Positions 18,305 through 24,112 of a DNA stretch of 64,000 bases are shown here, one piece after another (the first letter of the stretch is position 1; every line of letters begins with the position of its first letter). Both the position numbers and the translations under genes were made by a program. The notes under the pieces are model-generated. The model saw nothing but the letters and a program-made list of their open reading frames with translations, made no database searches and was not told where the DNA came from. The DNA comes from Escherichia phage EC100, in sequence record NC_105587.1. One strand, 5' to 3'.

Positions 18305-19179
18305 TAAAGAATCCTCTGTACACCACAGCTATTATTTTTGTCTGTGGTAAATGTGGTGATTTTGCCAGTTTCATCATTAACCTGCGCAACCGTCAACTGC
18401 CCGTTGAAAACACCGCCAGTATCCAGATAAACACGGTTTTTATGAAGAAGTGGGTAAGGTACTCCAGTATGTCCATGAAACACGAAATCTACCCCTTTAA
18501 CTTCTGGCACTTCTACCATGTATTTTTCTTTAAATCCTGCATAACGCTGGAAATACGGATGTTCCTCACCATTTTTGGATAAGTAGAAGCCTATTTCTTG
18601 GATTACATCTCGATCCCATAAATATGGTTCAATATGGTATCCAGGATGGTCATGTGGGTCTTCCTTAGCTGCTTCTACTTGTGCAATAAGATTATCCCAT
18701 ACTGGGGTTTCTACTTCATTACCACATTTTTTGTATGTAAAAGGTACACCACCGTGAACAACACCATACTTCTTACCACGATGTCTAACAGTTAGGAATA
18801 CTGGCATTTTTTCAGCCATATCTTCGGCGATATTTTTAATGGTGTCTGCATCCAGCTCATTCATAGCCCATATACCACCGTTATACATCCAATTAGCCCA
18901 ATCTCCTGCAATCATAAATTGGTCGTGATTACCACGGACACTGATAAAATGTGGATTATATAGGAATTTGGCTAAAACTTGTAGGTTTTGTGTGCCTCGG
19001 TCAATTAAGTCACCAACACATACTAAGCAATCTTTTTTGCTATTATACCCAGCTAATTTCAACGCATCTTCTAGTAAATCGTTGCATCCATGAATATCAC
19101 CAACGAAAAACAAGTTGGCATCATCCGGCACTACTAGAGTTTTATGTACATTAAATTCTTTTTTCATAATTATTCCCAA
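18304..19179 (-). CDS. Ser/Thr protein phosphatase (PPP family)
   Basis: 291 aa; 'GDIHGC', 'GDLIDRG', 'RGNHD' signature motifs. Confidence 0.8.
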   Translation of the reverse strand: MGIIMKKEFNVHKTLVVPDDANLFFVGDIHGCNDLLEDALKLAGYNSKKDCLVCVGDLIDRGTQNLQVLAKFLYNPHFISVRGNHDQFMIAGDWANWMYNGGIWAMNELDADTIKNIAEDMAEKMPVFLTVRHRGKKYGVVHGGVPFTYKKCGNEVETPVWDNLIAQVEAAKEDPHDHPGYHIEPYLWDRDVIQEIGFYLSKNGEEHPYFQRYAGFKEKYMVEVPEVKGVDFVFHGHTGVPYPLLHKNRVYLDTGGVFNGQLTVAQVNDETGKITTFTTDKNNSCGVQRIL

Positions 19180-19415
19180 ATAACAGTTAAAATAGTTGTG
19201 CCATAATCATTAGATAGTTGGAAGGTATAACCCTCTTTATAGAGGGCTTTTATAGCTTCATAACTAATTTCATCGCGATTAAACTGTACAAAAGAACCTC
19301 CAATCTCCACAGAAGAAACTATTCTCTTTTTAACATACTTATATGGTTTCTTTCTGCTCTTAAGAAGCGTAGCTCTATTTATCCTGGCTAAACGTTTTGC
19401 TTGTTCCGCTAACAT
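19170..19415 (-). CDS. hypothetical protein
   Basis: 81-aa ORF. Confidence 0.45.
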   Translation of the reverse strand: MLAEQAKRLARINRATLLKSRKKPYKYVKKRIVSSVEIGGSFVQFNRDEISYEAIKALYKEGYTFQLSNDYGTTILTVIWE

Positions 19416-20302: not shown

Positions 20303-20719
20303 TTAATCTACTGCATGTATAAATTTTTTCCTAACTAGATACATAGTTATTGGGTAAATTGAGTACATAAGTATCGGGGAGAAAAGGGTGAAATACGCTG
20401 TAACTCCCCCAGCTAACATCAAAGGTATTAATGCTAGAGTAAGGGCCATAAGAATCATACCGAATGAAACAGCCAAAGCTATGGATATAGGATTCTCTAG
20501 TTCCATCCATAACCAACAATATTTCGTATCTCTATGGCAATTGCATTTACAAACGCCGAATGAACCCATAATTATATACTCTAGTCCGTGAATAACCTTT
20601 ATTAATAAGCTATTTCGGGTAGTTAATGCAATGATAGTAAAGACTATCATTAAAACGAATACTACTAGACTTATTTTCCAGATACCTAGCAGCATCATAG
20701 TGAATAGTTCTGCAAACAT
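20303..20719 (-). CDS. integral membrane protein
   Basis: 138 aa, about four hydrophobic helices. Confidence 0.5.
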   Translation of the reverse strand: MFAELFTMMLLGIWKISLVVFVLMIVFTIIALTTRNSLLIKVIHGLEYIIMGSFGVCKCNCHRDTKYCWLWMELENPISIALAVSFGMILMALTLALIPLMLAGGVTAYFTLFSPILMYSIYPITMYLVRKKFIHAVD

Positions 20720-20797: not shown

Positions 20798-21211
20798 TTA
20801 AACTAGTTCGACATGACCGCCATCATAGGTACCACGTTTTATTTCGTCGTGATAATCTCCCGAAGCATTCCAATCAGCACCAAAACGAAGTTTAATGCCC
20901 AGTTCTTTACCCGCTTGTTCAAAAGCCTTTTTAACTGCCCAAAATGCTTCTAAATCATTCCAATCAATTTTGCCATTAATGTATGGAGCAAAATCAAGTG
21001 CATCCCCAGTAATATGCTTGCTTTTACTAGGATCTTTTAAAAATGAAGTACCATTAGCAATATTCTGGGCACTTTGTGCTACTGTACGAATACCCTGTAC
21101 GATCGTGAAATCATATGGAGATAATTCTAAAGCTCTACGAGCTACTTTTTGTAGCTCTGGCTTAACGGTAGCTAATTGTTTTTCGCTATTTTTACCAAAT
21201 TTAAAACTCAT
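20798..21211 (-). CDS. endolysin (L-alanyl-D-glutamate peptidase, M15-like)
   Basis: 137 aa; 'SKHITGDALD' and 'DGGHVEL' zinc-peptidase motifs; immediately downstream of holin. Confidence 0.75.
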   Translation of the reverse strand: MSFKFGKNSEKQLATVKPELQKVARRALELSPYDFTIVQGIRTVAQSAQNIANGTSFLKDPSKSKHITGDALDFAPYINGKIDWNDLEAFWAVKKAFEQAGKELGIKLRFGADWNASGDYHDEIKRGTYDGGHVELV

Positions 21212-21864
21212 ATTGATCTACCTAAAGATCTCTGTTGTGGGGAACAGAGCTTTGTTAAATACTCGTTAAATTTCTCAGAATCGGCTGTATCTACAGGATT
21301 ATCTTTCCAAGCAATACCAATATATCCAGCATAGATATTGTTTAGATTGAAATACGGACAAGTGTATATGTAATTAAAAGTAACGTTCTTAAACGCAGGT
21401 ATATTTAACCCCATGTATTTATTTACTTTTACACTTAAATCCGATGCGTAGTTAAAGCCTTCCAAGTGACGTCTATATAGCTCAGACGTTTTATTTACCG
21501 CTTTATCGGCCAAGTCAGCCCTATCTAATTGCGCATTGCTTTCCCATGCAATAATGTTAGAATAATCATTAATGGCATCGGGTTTATACTTGACGACAAA
21601 AACAGCATCCGCACCCGTTTGAGAAAAGAGTACCATGCTCTTTTCTCTAGCTACATTAGGAAAGTTATCTATCCTTTGAGTTTGAACATCCTGTAGAACC
21701 GCAGACGTGGAGAAAGTCTTTAAGAATGACATCACCTCGCTAGTATTACTAACAAATAAGAAAATAATGACAGCAACTAAGATAGTTAGCAGACGTTTAA
21801 GAAGCGATGCTGGATCTTTCGCTTCTTGGAGCAGTACTGTTAATAATTGTAAGAACTTTTCCAA
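21208..21864 (-). CDS. holin
   Basis: 218 aa with N-terminal TM helix, start/stop-coupled to endolysin. Confidence 0.65.
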   Translation of the reverse strand: MEKFLQLLTVLLQEAKDPASLLKRLLTILVAVIIFLFVSNTSEVMSFLKTFSTSAVLQDVQTQRIDNFPNVAREKSMVLFSQTGADAVFVVKYKPDAINDYSNIIAWESNAQLDRADLADKAVNKTSELYRRHLEGFNYASDLSVKVNKYMGLNIPAFKNVTFNYIYTCPYFNLNNIYAGYIGIAWKDNPVDTADSEKFNEYLTKLCSPQQRSLGRSI

Positions 21865-21980
21865 TTGTAACCTCCTCTAACCATTACCATTATACTAATT
21901 TTGGAGGAAAATTACAATGTGTTTTTAAAGATCACTTCTGGAGCATAAAATTTTGTCGTTGTCAAGAAGAATTTTAGATA

Positions 21981-22010
21981 AAAGAAAAGCCAGGGTCGTT
22001 AAACCCTGGC
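21981..22010 (-). terminator. rho-independent terminator downstream of ClpP-like gene
   Basis: GCCAGGGT-loop-ACCCTGGC then TTTTCTTT on reverse strand. Confidence 0.6.
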
Positions 22011-22020
22011 TTAAAATTAC

Positions 22021-22620
22021 TTACTCTTCATTGTGCTCCTCGGACTGAGGTAACTGGGCTTTATTATATTGCTCAGATCGATATTTTGCCAAGATTTCAA
22101 TACGCTTATGGATTTCCTTGCTATCTAGATAGATATTTTTGTTGTCTTTTACCATCTCGTCGATTTCATCTATTGAGAAGAACGGATAGTAGACATCTAA
22201 CATCATATCTTCTACGAACTTGTTGTAAGATTCATAGGCTTTCTTGATTTCTTGACCTTTCTCACAGAACCCACCAGAGAACGTATGTCCCATTAGCGTA
22301 GCATGTGGATGTACTACCCATCCATGACAGGATAGGAAAATTGTGCAGTAAGCAGAAGCACTAGGACCAACCAGATGTCCTATAACTGTTCCACGGCAAT
22401 TAGCAATTAAGTTAGATAACTGTGCCGCAGTATCAACATAACCACCCGGGCCATTAATCATCAGATTAATTTCGTCGTCCTCATTTGCCTGCATAAGTAC
22501 CATTGATAAATCACGGTATTCATCCGGCGGGCCTAATTCTTCATCAAAGAAAAAGGTATACTCATTAGATTGGCGAATGGAGTGAAACAGGTTAGTCTTT
22601 TCTTCTTTTTTATTAGTCAT
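22021..22620 (-). CDS. ClpP-like serine peptidase
   Basis: 199 aa; 'NGPGGYVDT', 'GPSASAYCT', 'HPHATLMGH' resemble ClpP Ser/His regions. Confidence 0.55.
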   Translation of the reverse strand: MTNKKEEKTNLFHSIRQSNEYTFFFDEELGPPDEYRDLSMVLMQANEDDEINLMINGPGGYVDTAAQLSNLIANCRGTVIGHLVGPSASAYCTIFLSCHGWVVHPHATLMGHTFSGGFCEKGQEIKKAYESYNKFVEDMMLDVYYPFFSIDEIDEMVKDNKNIYLDSKEIHKRIEILAKYRSEQYNKAQLPQSEEHNEE

Positions 22621-22632
22621 AGCGATCCTTGA

Positions 22633-23385
22633 TTATCCAACTAGTGGTTCTAGCTCTAAGTCACAGAAGTTATAAACTTCTAGTTTAAGGTTATTGATAC
22701 CATCGAATTTATTAACTAATTCGTGAGTAATATATTTTGCAGGAATACCACTTTCAGATGGATGATCTGATTTAATAGTGAACTTCTGCTCAGCGGGTAC
22801 TACATTTACTATCAAAGAATCCATATCTAAATGGTTTGTTTCTCTGAGTAACTCTCCTTCATTGGGGAATCTAACATCTGTTATTACGGCGACATCTGGG
22901 TCGTCTTTAGCGATGGATTGCTCCAGAATTATGAGCCAAATGCGTTCATGCACCAGCTGCCTTCCTAGCTCTGTCCCTACGAGCTGTAACATTTTTCTCG
23001 GAGAAATAAATAAACTATAAAGTCCGTCTTCTTTATTCTCTGAGATAAGTTGTTGAGGATTAAGATATTTTTCCTCAAAAATAGGCCAAACGTACGAGAA
23101 GTCTTCAAACTTATCGATACCGTACTTAAACCACACATCCCTGGCTCGTTCCAACTGAGATTGTGTGACCGTAAACCATTGGTCAATCTCTTTCCCCCTG
23201 CGCTCTCCTAGAAACTCTGGAGTTACACCGAGGATTACGGATGCAAGTTCATAAACGGGCTTAGCAAAACTATAACGACGAGATAAACACGTTGGATACG
23301 TGTCATTACACCAATCGATAATTAATTTTGCAACGGTATCTTTTCCCGAACCAGCTTCACCATGTAAACCGACTAATACTGACAT
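22633..23385 (-). CDS. dnk: deoxynucleoside monophosphate kinase
   Basis: 250 aa; P-loop 'GEAGSGKDT' at N-terminus. Confidence 0.75.
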   Translation of the reverse strand: MSVLVGLHGEAGSGKDTVAKLIIDWCNDTYPTCLSRRYSFAKPVYELASVILGVTPEFLGERRGKEIDQWFTVTQSQLERARDVWFKYGIDKFEDFSYVWPIFEEKYLNPQQLISENKEDGLYSLFISPRKMLQLVGTELGRQLVHERIWLIILEQSIAKDDPDVAVITDVRFPNEGELLRETNHLDMDSLIVNVVPAEQKFTIKSDHPSESGIPAKYITHELVNKFDGINNLKLEVYNFCDLELEPLVG

Positions 23386-23738
23386 TAATCTTTCCTATTG
23401 TTAATTGGTGGATAATATACTAAACAACGTTTTTCTTGTAAATCTTGACGATAGAAGCAAACCATACTTGTCAGTCGTGAAATATATGAGTATTCTGCCT
23501 CACGGCATTTTGCCAACATATTCCAATCTTTATATGGTACAACAACTACTACGCCATCTTCTCCATTTGTAGCTAATTTCTTTTCAAACTTAAAGTCAAA
23601 GCTACAAGGTTGAAGTCCTTTAGGCCAGTCTACATGAGCTTGCTTTAACTCATGAGATGGCTCTGGTTTTATTTCTTCTGCACAGCCTGTGATTGTGATT
23701 GCGGCTGCGAGCAGTATTCCAAGTTTCCAGTTAAACAC
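23385..23738 (-). CDS. putative lipoprotein (o-spanin-like)
   Basis: 117 aa; signal peptide with lipobox 'ITGC'; overlaps 3' end of upstream TM/coiled-coil gene in another frame. Confidence 0.45.
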   Translation of the reverse strand: MFNWKLGILLAAAITITGCAEEIKPEPSHELKQAHVDWPKGLQPCSFDFKFEKKLATNGEDGVVVVVPYKDWNMLAKCREAEYSYISRLTSMVCFYRQDLQEKRCLVYYPPINNRKD

Positions 23739-24112
23739 GCTAATCTTTCCTCGAACTCTTTACTCTGCTTTTTAGCAATTAATGTTACCAATCCAGGCTT
23801 TGCAGCTATAATATCTTGTCGACTAAGAGCTTTATCTAACTGCTTAATCTTTTTGTCTAGATCTGCTTGCGAAATATTATTCATTGTGAAATACTGATTC
23901 ATTCTAGTCTCACGAAGTTCGCTTTCAGCTTTCACCTTATTAAGGGAGGTTTCTAGAGAAGAAATCTTTTTAGTAGCTACTGCAAGATCACCTGCTAGAG
24001 TTTCAACCTTATTAACTAAGTGATAGGCACCGAACCCGATGCCTATCGCTAGACCTGCTCCCAAGATATACCACTTACCTTGCCATAGAGAACTAATAAA
24101 GTTTTTTATCAT
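23669..24112 (-). CDS. membrane-anchored coiled-coil protein (i-spanin-like)
   Basis: 147 aa; N-terminal TM helix then long helical region. Confidence 0.45.
   Translation of the reverse strand: MIKNFISSLWQGKWYILGAGLAIGIGFGAYHLVNKVETLAGDLAVATKKISSLETSLNKVKAESELRETRMNQYFTMNNISQADLDKKIKQLDKALSRQDIIAAKPGLVTLIAKKQSKEFEERLACLTGNLEYCSQPQSQSQAVQKK

What the first reader, a model, noticed from the sequence alone, without database searches (positions are those of the whole stretch)
20798..24112. Lysis functions appear split: holin-endolysin pair plus a separate candidate spanin pair
Holin (21208-21864) and an M15-like endolysin (20798-21211) are adjacent. About 1.5 kb away, a TM/coiled-coil protein (23669-24112) overlaps out of frame with a lipoprotein gene carrying a lipobox ITGC (23385-23738), which is the embedded/overlapping arrangement typical of i-spanin/o-spanin pairs. 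They are separated from the lysis cassette by ClpP-like and dNMP kinase genes.
Basis: inference. Interest (0 to 1): 0.45.

Follow-up and report, generated by a model that had tools for sequence, protein, structure and literature searches.

The report
T5-type spanin pair, already known
The window is the T5-like coliphage EC122, and the overlapping membrane-protein and lipoprotein genes are the already described T5-family spanin pair, which sits about 1.5 kb from the holin-endolysin pair in all relatives examined, so the reading is correct but ordinary.

Summary
The window is 100% identical to Escherichia phage EC122 (Tequintavirus), with the same coordinates.

- **Holin-endolysin pair:** 21208-21864 is a T4 gpt-type holin (PF11031, 7.6e-114). 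20798-21211 matches the solved T5 L-alanyl-D-glutamate peptidase (PDB 2MXZ, 1.3e-90).
- **Spanin candidates:** 23669-24112 and 23385-23738 overlap by 70 nt. They hit the PHROG families phrog_739 and phrog_812, which also hold T4 PseT.3 and PseT.2.
- **Conserved residues:** the lipobox Cys19 and the two C-terminal cysteines essential in T4 PseT.2 are invariant in all six sequences I aligned.
- **Prior description:** T5 RefSeq calls the orthologues T5.045 and T5.044 "Rz-like spanin". Kongari et al. 2018 (PMC6139136) describe a "T5 family" of spanins overlapping by 70 bp, and show that the T4 pair complements lambda Rz/Rz1.
- **Gene order:** i-spanin, o-spanin, dNMP kinase, Clp-like protein, terminator, holin, endolysin. 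Five relatives examined keep it, including Klebsiella phage Sugarland.

The arrangement is "overlapped", not embedded. One small correction emerges: the GenBank record of EC122 truncates the o-spanin to 43 aa, probably because its start codon is GTG.

The parts
23669..24112 (-). i-spanin (orthologue of T5.045, homologue of T4 PseT.3). It is 147 aa, with an N-terminal Gly-rich TM segment around residues 15-33, a long periplasmic helix, a conserved AAKPGLV motif, and two C-terminal cysteines (C126, C134) encoded inside the overlap.
   Evidence: ORF. phrog_739 at 4.5e-38, the family that also contains T4 PseT.3. BLASTP to PseT.3 at 3e-6. Alignment A2. Best 19-residue hydropathy window is 1.55 at residues 15-33, with a net +2 N-terminal flank. 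Single-sequence AF2 gives a helix over residues 3-77, with mean pLDDT per 10-residue block of 72-91 over residues 31-90. Annotated i-spanin or Rz-like spanin in relatives.
23385..23738 (-). o-spanin (orthologue of T5.044, homologue of T4 PseT.2). It is a 117-aa prolipoprotein with a GTG start and lipobox ITG|C19. The mature form is 99 aa with Ala at +2 and four further cysteines (C45, C78, C94, C105).
   Evidence: ORF. phrog_812 at 5e-30, the same family as T4 PseT.2. BLASTP to PseT.2 at 3e-7. C19, C94 and C105 are invariant in A1. PROSITE-type lipobox. Start column is ATG in T5, Sugarland and Eos. 539 phage records hold it. No similarity to the T5 Llp lipoprotein.
23669..23738 (-). The 70-nt dual-coding overlap. 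It encodes i-spanin residues 125-147 (ACLTGNLEYCSQPQSQSQAVQKK) and, in the +2 frame, the o-spanin signal peptide with lipobox (MFNWKLGILLAAAITITGCAEEIK).
   Evidence: The same 70-bp overlap is reported for T5 in PMC6139136.
21208..21864 (-). Class III (T4 gpt-type) holin, 218 aa. It has one TM segment around residues 20-48 and a large periplasmic domain. The start codon is TTG.
   Evidence: PF11031 at 7.6e-114. phrog_860 at 2e-78. Hydropathy. T5.041 is annotated as holin.
20798..21211 (-). Endolysin, an L-alanyl-D-glutamate peptidase of the M15C type. It has no hydrophobic segment that could serve as a signal or anchor, so its export is presumably holin-dependent. Its start overlaps the holin stop by 4 nt.
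   Evidence: PDB 2MXZ/8P3A at 1.3e-90 over residues 1-137. phrog_465 at 2.2e-54. No 19-residue window with mean hydropathy above 1.6.
21987..22012 (-). Intrinsic-terminator-like hairpin (11 pairs, 6 of them G-C, then a T-run). It ends the spanin/dnk/Clp-like transcription unit upstream of the holin gene.
   Evidence: It corresponds in position to the terminator annotated in T5 at 21114-21143 and in Sugarland.
21889..21917 (-). Promoter-like site (TTGTAA, 17 nt, TATAAT) in front of the holin-endolysin pair.
   Evidence: It corresponds in position to the promoter annotated in T5 at 20998-21071. The consensus match alone is not evidence of function.
22021..23385 (-). The two intervening genes: dNMP kinase (22633-23385) and a Clp-like protein (22021-22620). 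They lie in the same transcription unit as the spanin genes. No lysis role is indicated for either.
   Evidence: PF21448 at 1.5e-11 and PF00574 at 4.2e-08. phrog_139 and phrog_1827. The same order occurs in T5, APCEc03, IrisVonRoten, Shivani and Sugarland, and in Eos to judge by gene sizes.

Best explanation
The two overlapping genes encode the two-component spanin of a T5-like phage (Escherichia phage EC122).

**The two proteins.**
- The 147-aa protein is a type II inner-membrane protein, with its N-terminus in the cytoplasm, one TM helix and a helical periplasmic domain.
- The 117-aa protein is cleaved by signal peptidase II at ITG|C and lipidated on Cys19. Position +2 is Ala, so the Lol pathway should send it to the outer membrane.

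**Inferred mechanism, by homology to T4 PseT.3/PseT.2 and lambda Rz/Rz1.** The two periplasmic domains bind each other and form a bridge through the peptidoglycan mesh, stabilised by disulfide bonds. The class III holin at 21208-21864 triggers and lets the cytoplasmic endolysin (20798-21211) reach the wall. Once the peptidoglycan is gone, the spanin complexes are free to cluster and change shape, and they fuse the inner and outer membranes. That removes the last barrier to phage release.

**Gene organisation.** The spanin genes lie in an upstream transcription unit: the 230-aa ORF, i-spanin, o-spanin, dnk, the Clp-like gene, then a terminator. The holin-endolysin pair has its own promoter. The spanins can accumulate harmlessly before the holin fires.

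**Shown here:** the ORFs, the sequence features, homology to T4 and conserved synteny. **Inferred:** localisation, complex formation, membrane fusion and timing.
For: - **Identity of the window:** 100% match to EC122 at the same coordinates.
- **Family assignment:** phrog_812 and phrog_739, both named 'Rz-like spanin', at 5e-30 and 4.5e-38. T4 PseT.2 and PseT.3 hit the same two families at 5e-42 and 1.3e-37.
- **Pairwise BLASTP to the T4 proteins:** 3e-7 and 3e-6.
- **Invariant residues:** C19 (lipobox), C94 and C105 in the o-spanin alignment. The latter two align with PseT.2 C87 and C98, which are essential for lysis (PMC6139136). K105-P106-x-L108 are invariant in the i-spanin.
- **Sequence features:** lipobox and +2 Ala. 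TM segment, positive-inside N-terminal flank and long helix.
- **Prior annotation:** T5.044 and T5.045 are 'Rz-like spanin' with a note of similarity to PseT.2 and PseT.3. They are called i-spanin and o-spanin in the BASEL phages and others.
- **Literature:** Kongari et al. describe the T5 family, its 70-bp overlap and the complementation of lambda RzamRz1am by the T4 pair.
- **Synteny and regulatory signals:** conserved from Tequintavirus to Sugarlandvirus.
Against: - I found no direct experiment on any T5-family spanin.
- There is no Pfam or NCBIfam model hit for either protein, and no solved structure.
- Identity to T4 is only 22-28%.
- The i-spanin TM segment is Gly-rich, with moderate hydropathy (best 19-residue window 1.55).
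- The single-sequence model of the o-spanin is unusable (pLDDT 48.8).
- The cysteine pattern differs from T4. There are two Cys in the i-spanin where T4 has none, and four periplasmic Cys in the o-spanin where T4 has two. The disulfide scheme therefore cannot simply be copied from T4.
Confidence: 0.93

Rival explanations
1. The lipoprotein is a superinfection-exclusion or receptor-blocking lipoprotein, like T5 Llp or the Cor proteins, rather than a lysis protein. The upstream TM protein would then be unrelated.
For: T5-like phages do encode such a lipoprotein (T5.158, annotated 'Cor superinfection exclusion protein'). The spanin genes lie in a unit with the nucleotide-metabolism gene dnk, not with the holin-endolysin pair.
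Against: There is no detectable similarity to T5 Llp (no alignment at E <= 100). In T5, Llp is encoded elsewhere, next to the receptor-binding protein gene. The protein is homologous to T4 PseT.2, including both essential cysteines. It stays next to an i-spanin homologue in all six phages aligned, even where a homing endonuclease gene has split the overlap.
Confidence: 0.02
2. The TM/helical protein is a generic bitopic coiled-coil membrane protein, for example FtsL-like and interfering with cell division. The overlapping lipoprotein frame would be a fortuitous ORF.
For: There is a weak NCBIfam hit to the FtsL domain (E 1.7e-4, 21.2 bits, against a cut-off of 50). EC122's own GenBank record does not call the full lipoprotein ORF.
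Against: The FtsL hit is far below the cut-off and covers only the TM segment plus the first helix. The lipoprotein frame is conserved as protein in 539 records, down to 39% identity, with invariant Cys residues and a conserved start column and Shine-Dalgarno sequence. Both proteins hit spanin PHROGs strongly.
Confidence: 0.02
3. The pair is a degenerate or redundant spanin remnant. Outer-membrane disruption in T5-like phages would then be done by something else, such as a disruptin-type peptide or an endolysin with intrinsic outer-membrane activity.
For: No experimental test of T5 spanins was found. The genes are separated from the holin-endolysin pair.
Against: Both genes are intact and conserved across Demerecviridae genera with all key residues. 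The dual-coding overlap is maintained, and where a homing endonuclease gene was inserted both genes were repaired to full length (PMC6139136). That pattern argues for continued selection.
Confidence: 0.03

Closest known systems
Phage T5 T5.045/T5.044, the 'T5 family' of two-component spanins of Kongari et al. 2018 (PMC6139136)
   Same: Orthologues, at 90% identity for the i-spanin and 97% for the o-spanin. The lengths are the same (147 and 117 aa), the overlap is the same 70 nt, the neighbours are the same (dnk, Clp-like, terminator, holin, endolysin), and so is the lipobox.
   Different: The o-spanin starts with GTG here and ATG in T5. The change is synonymous in the i-spanin frame. T5 has the homing endonuclease gene hegF immediately upstream of the i-spanin, which is absent here. 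A few N-terminal cytoplasmic residues of the i-spanin differ.
Phage T4 PseT.3/PseT.2 spanins, experimentally validated by complementation of lambda Rz/Rz1 amber mutants (PMC6139136)
   Same: Same PHROG families. The topology is the same, the KPGLV motif is shared, and the C-terminal C-x-YR-x-x-L-x-E-x-x-C motif carries both essential cysteines. In T4 too the spanin genes lie away from the holin and endolysin genes, next to a nucleic-acid enzyme gene (pseT) (PMC6139136). Both phages use a gpt-type class III holin (PMC12894885).
   Different: Identity is only 22-28%. The T4 genes are 'separated' (a 4-nt overlap), while these are 'overlapped' by 70 nt. The T4 i-spanin has no cysteine; this one has two conserved C-terminal cysteines. 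The T4 o-spanin has two periplasmic cysteines; this one has four. T4 holin and endolysin are also unlinked from each other, whereas here they are adjacent. The endolysin is an M15C peptidase here and a lysozyme in T4 (the latter from my own knowledge).
Lambda Rz/Rz1
   Same: Same functional design: a type II inner-membrane protein with a helical periplasmic domain, plus an outer-membrane lipoprotein encoded in another frame of overlapping DNA, with periplasmic cysteines.
   Different: No sequence similarity was detected; there are no Pfam Rz or Rz1 hits. Lambda Rz1 is fully embedded in Rz, short, proline-rich and unstructured. This o-spanin is 99 aa when mature, and the low-confidence model hints at strand-helix-strand structure, as predicted for PseT.2 (PMC6139136). 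The lambda genes sit directly after S and R in one late operon (my own knowledge).

Membership tests
Two-component spanin, T5/T4 (PseT.3/PseT.2) type | The i-spanin has a single N-terminal TM segment with an N-in/C-out (type II) layout, followed by a helical periplasmic domain. | tested here: met
   Hydrophobic segment at residues 15-33 (best 19-residue hydropathy window 1.55), N-flank net +2 and C-flank net 0. AF2 helix over residues 3-77 and a second over 82-97. Heptad a/d positions are 8 of 8 hydrophobic in windows starting at 31-36. Topology itself is inferred, not measured.
Two-component spanin, T5/T4 (PseT.3/PseT.2) type | The o-spanin has a signal peptidase II lipobox with the lipidated Cys, and no Asp at +2 (the outer-membrane sorting rule). 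| tested here: met
   LLAAAITITG|C19 matches the PROSITE-type pattern, and positions +2/+3 are Ala/Glu. Cys19 is invariant in 6 of 6 aligned homologues.
Two-component spanin, T5/T4 (PseT.3/PseT.2) type | Sequence homology of both subunits to validated spanins. | tested here: met
   phrog_739 at 4.5e-38 and phrog_812 at 5e-30. T4 PseT.3 and PseT.2 hit the same two families. BLASTP gives 3e-6 and 3e-7.
Two-component spanin, T5/T4 (PseT.3/PseT.2) type | Periplasmic cysteines for disulfide linkage. In the T4 family this means the two C-terminal o-spanin cysteines. | tested here: met
   C94 and C105 align with PseT.2 C87 and C98 and are invariant. Their essentiality in T4 is reported in PMC6139136. 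Disulfide formation was not tested.
Two-component spanin, T5/T4 (PseT.3/PseT.2) type | The i-spanin gene lies immediately upstream of the o-spanin gene, in an embedded, overlapped or separated layout. | tested here: met
   The 70-nt overlap, +2 frame, makes this the 'overlapped' class. T5 is the same.
Two-component spanin, T5/T4 (PseT.3/PseT.2) type | Required for outer-membrane disruption: a spherical-cell lysis block when absent, or complementation of lambda Rz/Rz1. | not testable with these tools
   This needs genetics. I found no published test for a T5-family pair. It has been done for the T4 homologues.
Class III (T4 gpt-type) holin | Match to the Phage_holin_T family, with one TM segment and a large C-terminal periplasmic domain. 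| tested here: met
   PF11031 at 7.6e-114, 379 bits against a cut-off of 22.2, covering residues 3-217. There is a single hydrophobic stretch, with 19-residue windows starting at residues 17-30.
M15C L-alanyl-D-glutamate peptidase endolysin (EndoT5) | Full-length similarity to the solved T5 enzyme. | tested here: met
   2MXZ/8P3A at 1.3e-90 over residues 1-137. The Pfam Peptidase_M15_4 hit alone is below the cut-off (23.2 vs 25 bits).
Lambda Rz/Rz1 family (embedded spanins) | Sequence membership in the Rz and Rz1 Pfam families, with the o-spanin fully embedded in the i-spanin gene. | tested here: not met
   No Pfam hit at E <= 0.01 for either protein. The o-spanin gene extends 284 nt beyond the i-spanin stop. 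This pair works like Rz/Rz1 but is not a member of that family.
Llp/Cor superinfection-exclusion lipoproteins | Sequence similarity to T5 Llp, and a location next to the receptor-binding protein gene. | tested here: not met
   No BLASTP alignment at E <= 100. In T5, llp lies at 110429-110662 next to oad.

The most novel reading that the evidence does not exclude
The T5-family spanin may use a disulfide architecture different from both lambda and T4. Its i-spanin carries a conserved C-terminal Cys pair (C126 and C134, C-x7-C). Both are encoded inside the dual-coding overlap, and both are retained when a homing endonuclease gene splits the overlap. Its o-spanin carries an extra conserved Cys pair (C45, C78) that T4 lacks. 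In addition, the conserved 4-TM, Cys-rich protein just downstream of the endolysin gene (20303-20719) could be an undescribed regulator of the gpt-type holin in phages that lack rI. Neither idea is tested here.
Probability: 0.12. Interest if true: 0.35.

Novelty: already known. Interest (0 to 1): 0.08.

Why it matters
It matters little beyond annotation hygiene. The spanin pair of T5-like phages, its 70-bp overlap and its separation from the holin-endolysin pair are already in RefSeq annotation and in the spanin census of Kongari et al. 2018.

The practical point is that the deposited EC122 record, and several other records of T5-like phages, leave these genes as 'hypothetical protein' or truncate the o-spanin. 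In EC122 and APCEc03 the cause is probably its GTG start and its overlap with the preceding gene. Phage-therapy and biocontrol genome descriptions that list lysis genes should include them.

The T5 family remains experimentally untested, so a complementation test would close a small gap.

Tried and rejected
- **Pfam and NCBIfam** gave no family for either spanin. The only hit was a sub-threshold FtsL-domain match for the i-spanin, which I rejected as generic similarity between a TM segment plus coiled coil.
- **PDB sequence search** found nothing meaningful for either spanin.
- **Single-sequence AlphaFold2.** The o-spanin model has pLDDT 48.8 and was not used for fold search. The i-spanin model has pLDDT 64.2 and is informative only for the long helix. 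Alignment-based prediction was not possible, because only window sequences and homologous-protein hits may be submitted. I judged the 13-CPU-hour search not worth it for a settled question.
- **Llp/Cor-type exclusion lipoprotein** was considered and rejected: no similarity, and a different locus.
- **Literature search** for direct experiments on T5.044 and T5.045 found none.
- **First attempt to locate T4 pseT.2/pseT.3** used the wrong coordinates. The second attempt succeeded.


Full report
**What the window is.** A megablast of 20700-24200 matches Escherichia phage EC122 (ON185583.1; Demerecviridae, Tequintavirus) at 100% identity and at the same coordinates. Another 451 T5-like records from Escherichia, Salmonella, Klebsiella and other hosts also match. 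The window is therefore the left 64 kb of a T5-like genome.

- **Holin, 21208-21864.** This is a full-length member of the T4 gpt holin family (PF11031, 7.6e-114; phrog_860), with one hydrophobic segment.
- **Endolysin, 20798-21211.** It matches the solved T5 L-alanyl-D-glutamate peptidase (2MXZ/8P3A) at 1.3e-90. The Pfam M15_4 hit on its own is just below the cut-off.
- **Intervening genes.** 22021-22620 is Clp-like and 22633-23385 is a dNMP kinase.
- **The candidate pair.** The 147-aa ORF (23669-24112) and the 117-aa ORF (23385-23738, GTG start) overlap by 70 nt, with the second in the +2 frame.
- **Lipoprotein features.** The 117-aa product begins MFNWKLGILLAAAITITG|C, which fits the PROSITE lipobox pattern. 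Ala at +2 is compatible with outer-membrane sorting.
- **Membrane-protein features.** The 147-aa product has a Gly-rich hydrophobic segment at residues 15-33, a positively charged N-terminal flank and a long helix.

**Is it more than chance?** Yes.

- The lipoprotein frame is found as protein in 539 phage records, down to 39% identity.
- In a DNA alignment of EC122, T5, APCEc03, Sugarland and Eos, the start column is ATG in three phages and GTG in two. It lies behind a conserved AGGA-type ribosome-binding site.
- The A-to-G change that makes GTG is synonymous in the i-spanin frame (GCA to GCG).

**What it is.**

- **Family hits.** Both proteins hit PHROG families named 'Rz-like spanin' (phrog_739 at 4.5e-38, phrog_812 at 5e-30). 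T4 PseT.3 and PseT.2 hit the same two families (1.3e-37 and 5e-42).
- **Pairwise comparison.** BLASTP gives 3e-6 to PseT.3 and 3e-7 to PseT.2.
- **Invariant residues, o-spanin.** I aligned EC122, T5, Shivani, Sugarland, Eos and T4. The invariant o-spanin residues include the lipobox Cys19, C94 and C105. The latter two align with PseT.2 C87 and C98, which Kongari et al. showed to be essential for lysis (PMC6139136).
- **Invariant residues, i-spanin.** The K-P-x-L motif is invariant.
- **Prior annotation.** T5 RefSeq annotates the orthologues T5.044 and T5.045 as 'Rz-like spanin' and notes similarity to PseT.2 and PseT.3. The BASEL phages, Sugarland, Seabear, the GEC phages and others call them i-spanin and o-spanin.
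- **Literature.** Kongari et al. 2018 define a 'T5 family' of spanins and state that the T5 genes overlap by 70 bp. In Shivani and phiR201 the two genes are separated by about 700 bp that hold a homing endonuclease gene. The same paper shows that T4 pseT.3/pseT.2 complement lambda RzamRz1am.

**The 'split'.** The gene order is 230-aa ORF, i-spanin, o-spanin, dnk, Clp-like, terminator, promoter, holin, endolysin, 4-TM protein. It is the same in T5, APCEc03, IrisVonRoten, Shivani and Klebsiella phage Sugarland. Eos appears to share it, judging by gene sizes.

In the window, a strong terminator-like hairpin (22012-21987; 11 pairs, then a T-run) follows the Clp-like gene. A promoter-like site (21917-21889; TTGTAA, 17 nt, TATAAT) precedes the holin gene. 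Both coincide with features annotated in T5. The holin-endolysin pair and the spanin pair therefore belong to different transcription units, and this holds in every relative I examined.

Within the upstream unit the genes abut or overlap: 24109-24112 is a 4-nt overlap (stop codon TGA on the ATG of the next gene), and at 23385 the last base of the TAA stop is the first base of the next ATG. This suggests translational coupling, which is an inference.

A KPP105 genome paper describes the same endolysin-holin-x-x-o-spanin-i-spanin block as one lysis module (PMC12136712). In T4 the spanin genes also lie away from t and e (PMC6139136, Fig. 8 legend). [quoted passage not shown] The T5 lysis system thus shares the holin and spanin types with T4 but uses a different endolysin.

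**Mechanism.** This part is inferred from established spanin biology, not tested here. The i-spanin is anchored in the inner membrane and the lipidated o-spanin in the outer membrane. Their periplasmic domains bind across the peptidoglycan mesh, stabilised by disulfides. Once the holin has released the endolysin and the wall is degraded, the complexes can cluster and fuse the two membranes.

**Differences from T4.** These are seen directly in the alignments. The Demerecviridae i-spanin has two conserved C-terminal cysteines (C126, C134; T4 has none). They are encoded within the overlap and kept in Shivani after the homing endonuclease insertion. The o-spanin has an extra conserved pair, C45 and C78. 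The disulfide scheme may therefore differ in detail from T4.

**Rivals.**

- **Llp/Cor-type exclusion lipoprotein.** Excluded: there is no similarity to T5 Llp, which is encoded next to the receptor-binding protein gene.
- **FtsL-like protein.** This rests only on a sub-threshold hit (21.2 bits against a cut-off of 50).
- **Chance ORF.** Excluded by conservation.

**Limits.**

- I found no experiment on a T5-family spanin.
- Neither protein has a Pfam or NCBIfam family or a solved structure.
- The single-sequence models are weak.

**Verdict.** 'Overlapped' is the correct architectural term, not 'embedded'. The only new item is a correction to the deposited EC122 record. That record annotates the i-spanin as hypothetical and truncates the o-spanin to a 43-aa ORF at 23385-23516. 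The RefSeq record of APCEc03 similarly shortens it to 82 aa, although the full 117-aa GTG-started ORF is present there too.

Noticed in passing
window 23385-23738 (GenBank ON185583.1 CDS 23385-23516): EC122's deposited annotation truncates the o-spanin to a 43-aa 'hypothetical protein' and leaves the i-spanin as hypothetical. RefSeq APCEc03 shortens the o-spanin to 82 aa. The probable cause is the GTG start, which is ATG at the same column in T5, Sugarland and Eos. The A-to-G change is silent in the overlapping i-spanin frame.
   Followed up: yes
L003 4526-5224 (IrisVonRoten); L009 1815-2513 (Shivani); L004 5246-5743 (T5 hegF); window 24109-24112: The spanin locus is a hot spot for homing endonuclease genes. 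One sits between the i- and o-spanin genes in IrisVonRoten and Shivani, replacing the last residues of the i-spanin and the first residues of the o-spanin signal peptide. Another (hegF) sits just upstream of the i-spanin in T5. This window has neither. The Shivani case is already described in PMC6139136.
   Followed up: partly
window 20303-20719 (-): A 138-aa protein lies immediately downstream of the endolysin gene. Two long hydrophobic stretches show up here, and the T5 record says four TM domains. A C-x-C-x-C-x6-C cluster occupies residues 57-68. It belongs to phrog_5944 (unknown function). A same-sized gene holds this position in T5 (T5.039), APCEc03, IrisVonRoten and Sugarland, and a slightly longer one (447 nt) in Eos. 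It could be linked to lysis or holin control, but nothing tested here says so.
   Followed up: no
window 22021-22620 (-): The 'ATP-dependent Clp protease proteolytic subunit' scores far below every curated ClpP cut-off (15.9-40.9 bits against cut-offs of 120-475, NCBIfam). It resembles ClpP-related head-maturation proteases about as well, although T5 has a separate head protease (T5.150). The product name is probably an over-annotation, and the function is unknown.
   Followed up: partly
whole window; one site at 23200-23204 (-): RGCGC is the nick-site consensus quoted in the T5 record. It is under-represented, with 77 sites against 123 +/- 14 in shuffles, and very unevenly spread. About two thirds of the sites lie in the first 11.3 kb, and few lie in the remaining 53 kb. 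The AGCGC inside dnk at 23200-23204 is at the position equivalent to T5's annotated 'major DNA single-chain interruption'.
   Followed up: no
L008 4324-6980 (Bacteriophage Eos, MN478377.1): Product names in this record look shifted by one gene. The dnk-sized gene is called 'protease', the Clp-like-sized gene 'holin', and the holin-sized gene 'endolysin'. This is judged from gene sizes and order only.
   Followed up: no
L004 304-549 (T5 RefSeq T5.036); window 19170-19415 (-): An 81-aa early-region ORF is labelled 'major head protein' in T5 RefSeq. T5's real major head protein is T5.149 (Pb8), so this looks like an annotation error. The equivalent window ORF is 'hypothetical protein' in EC122.
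   Followed up: no
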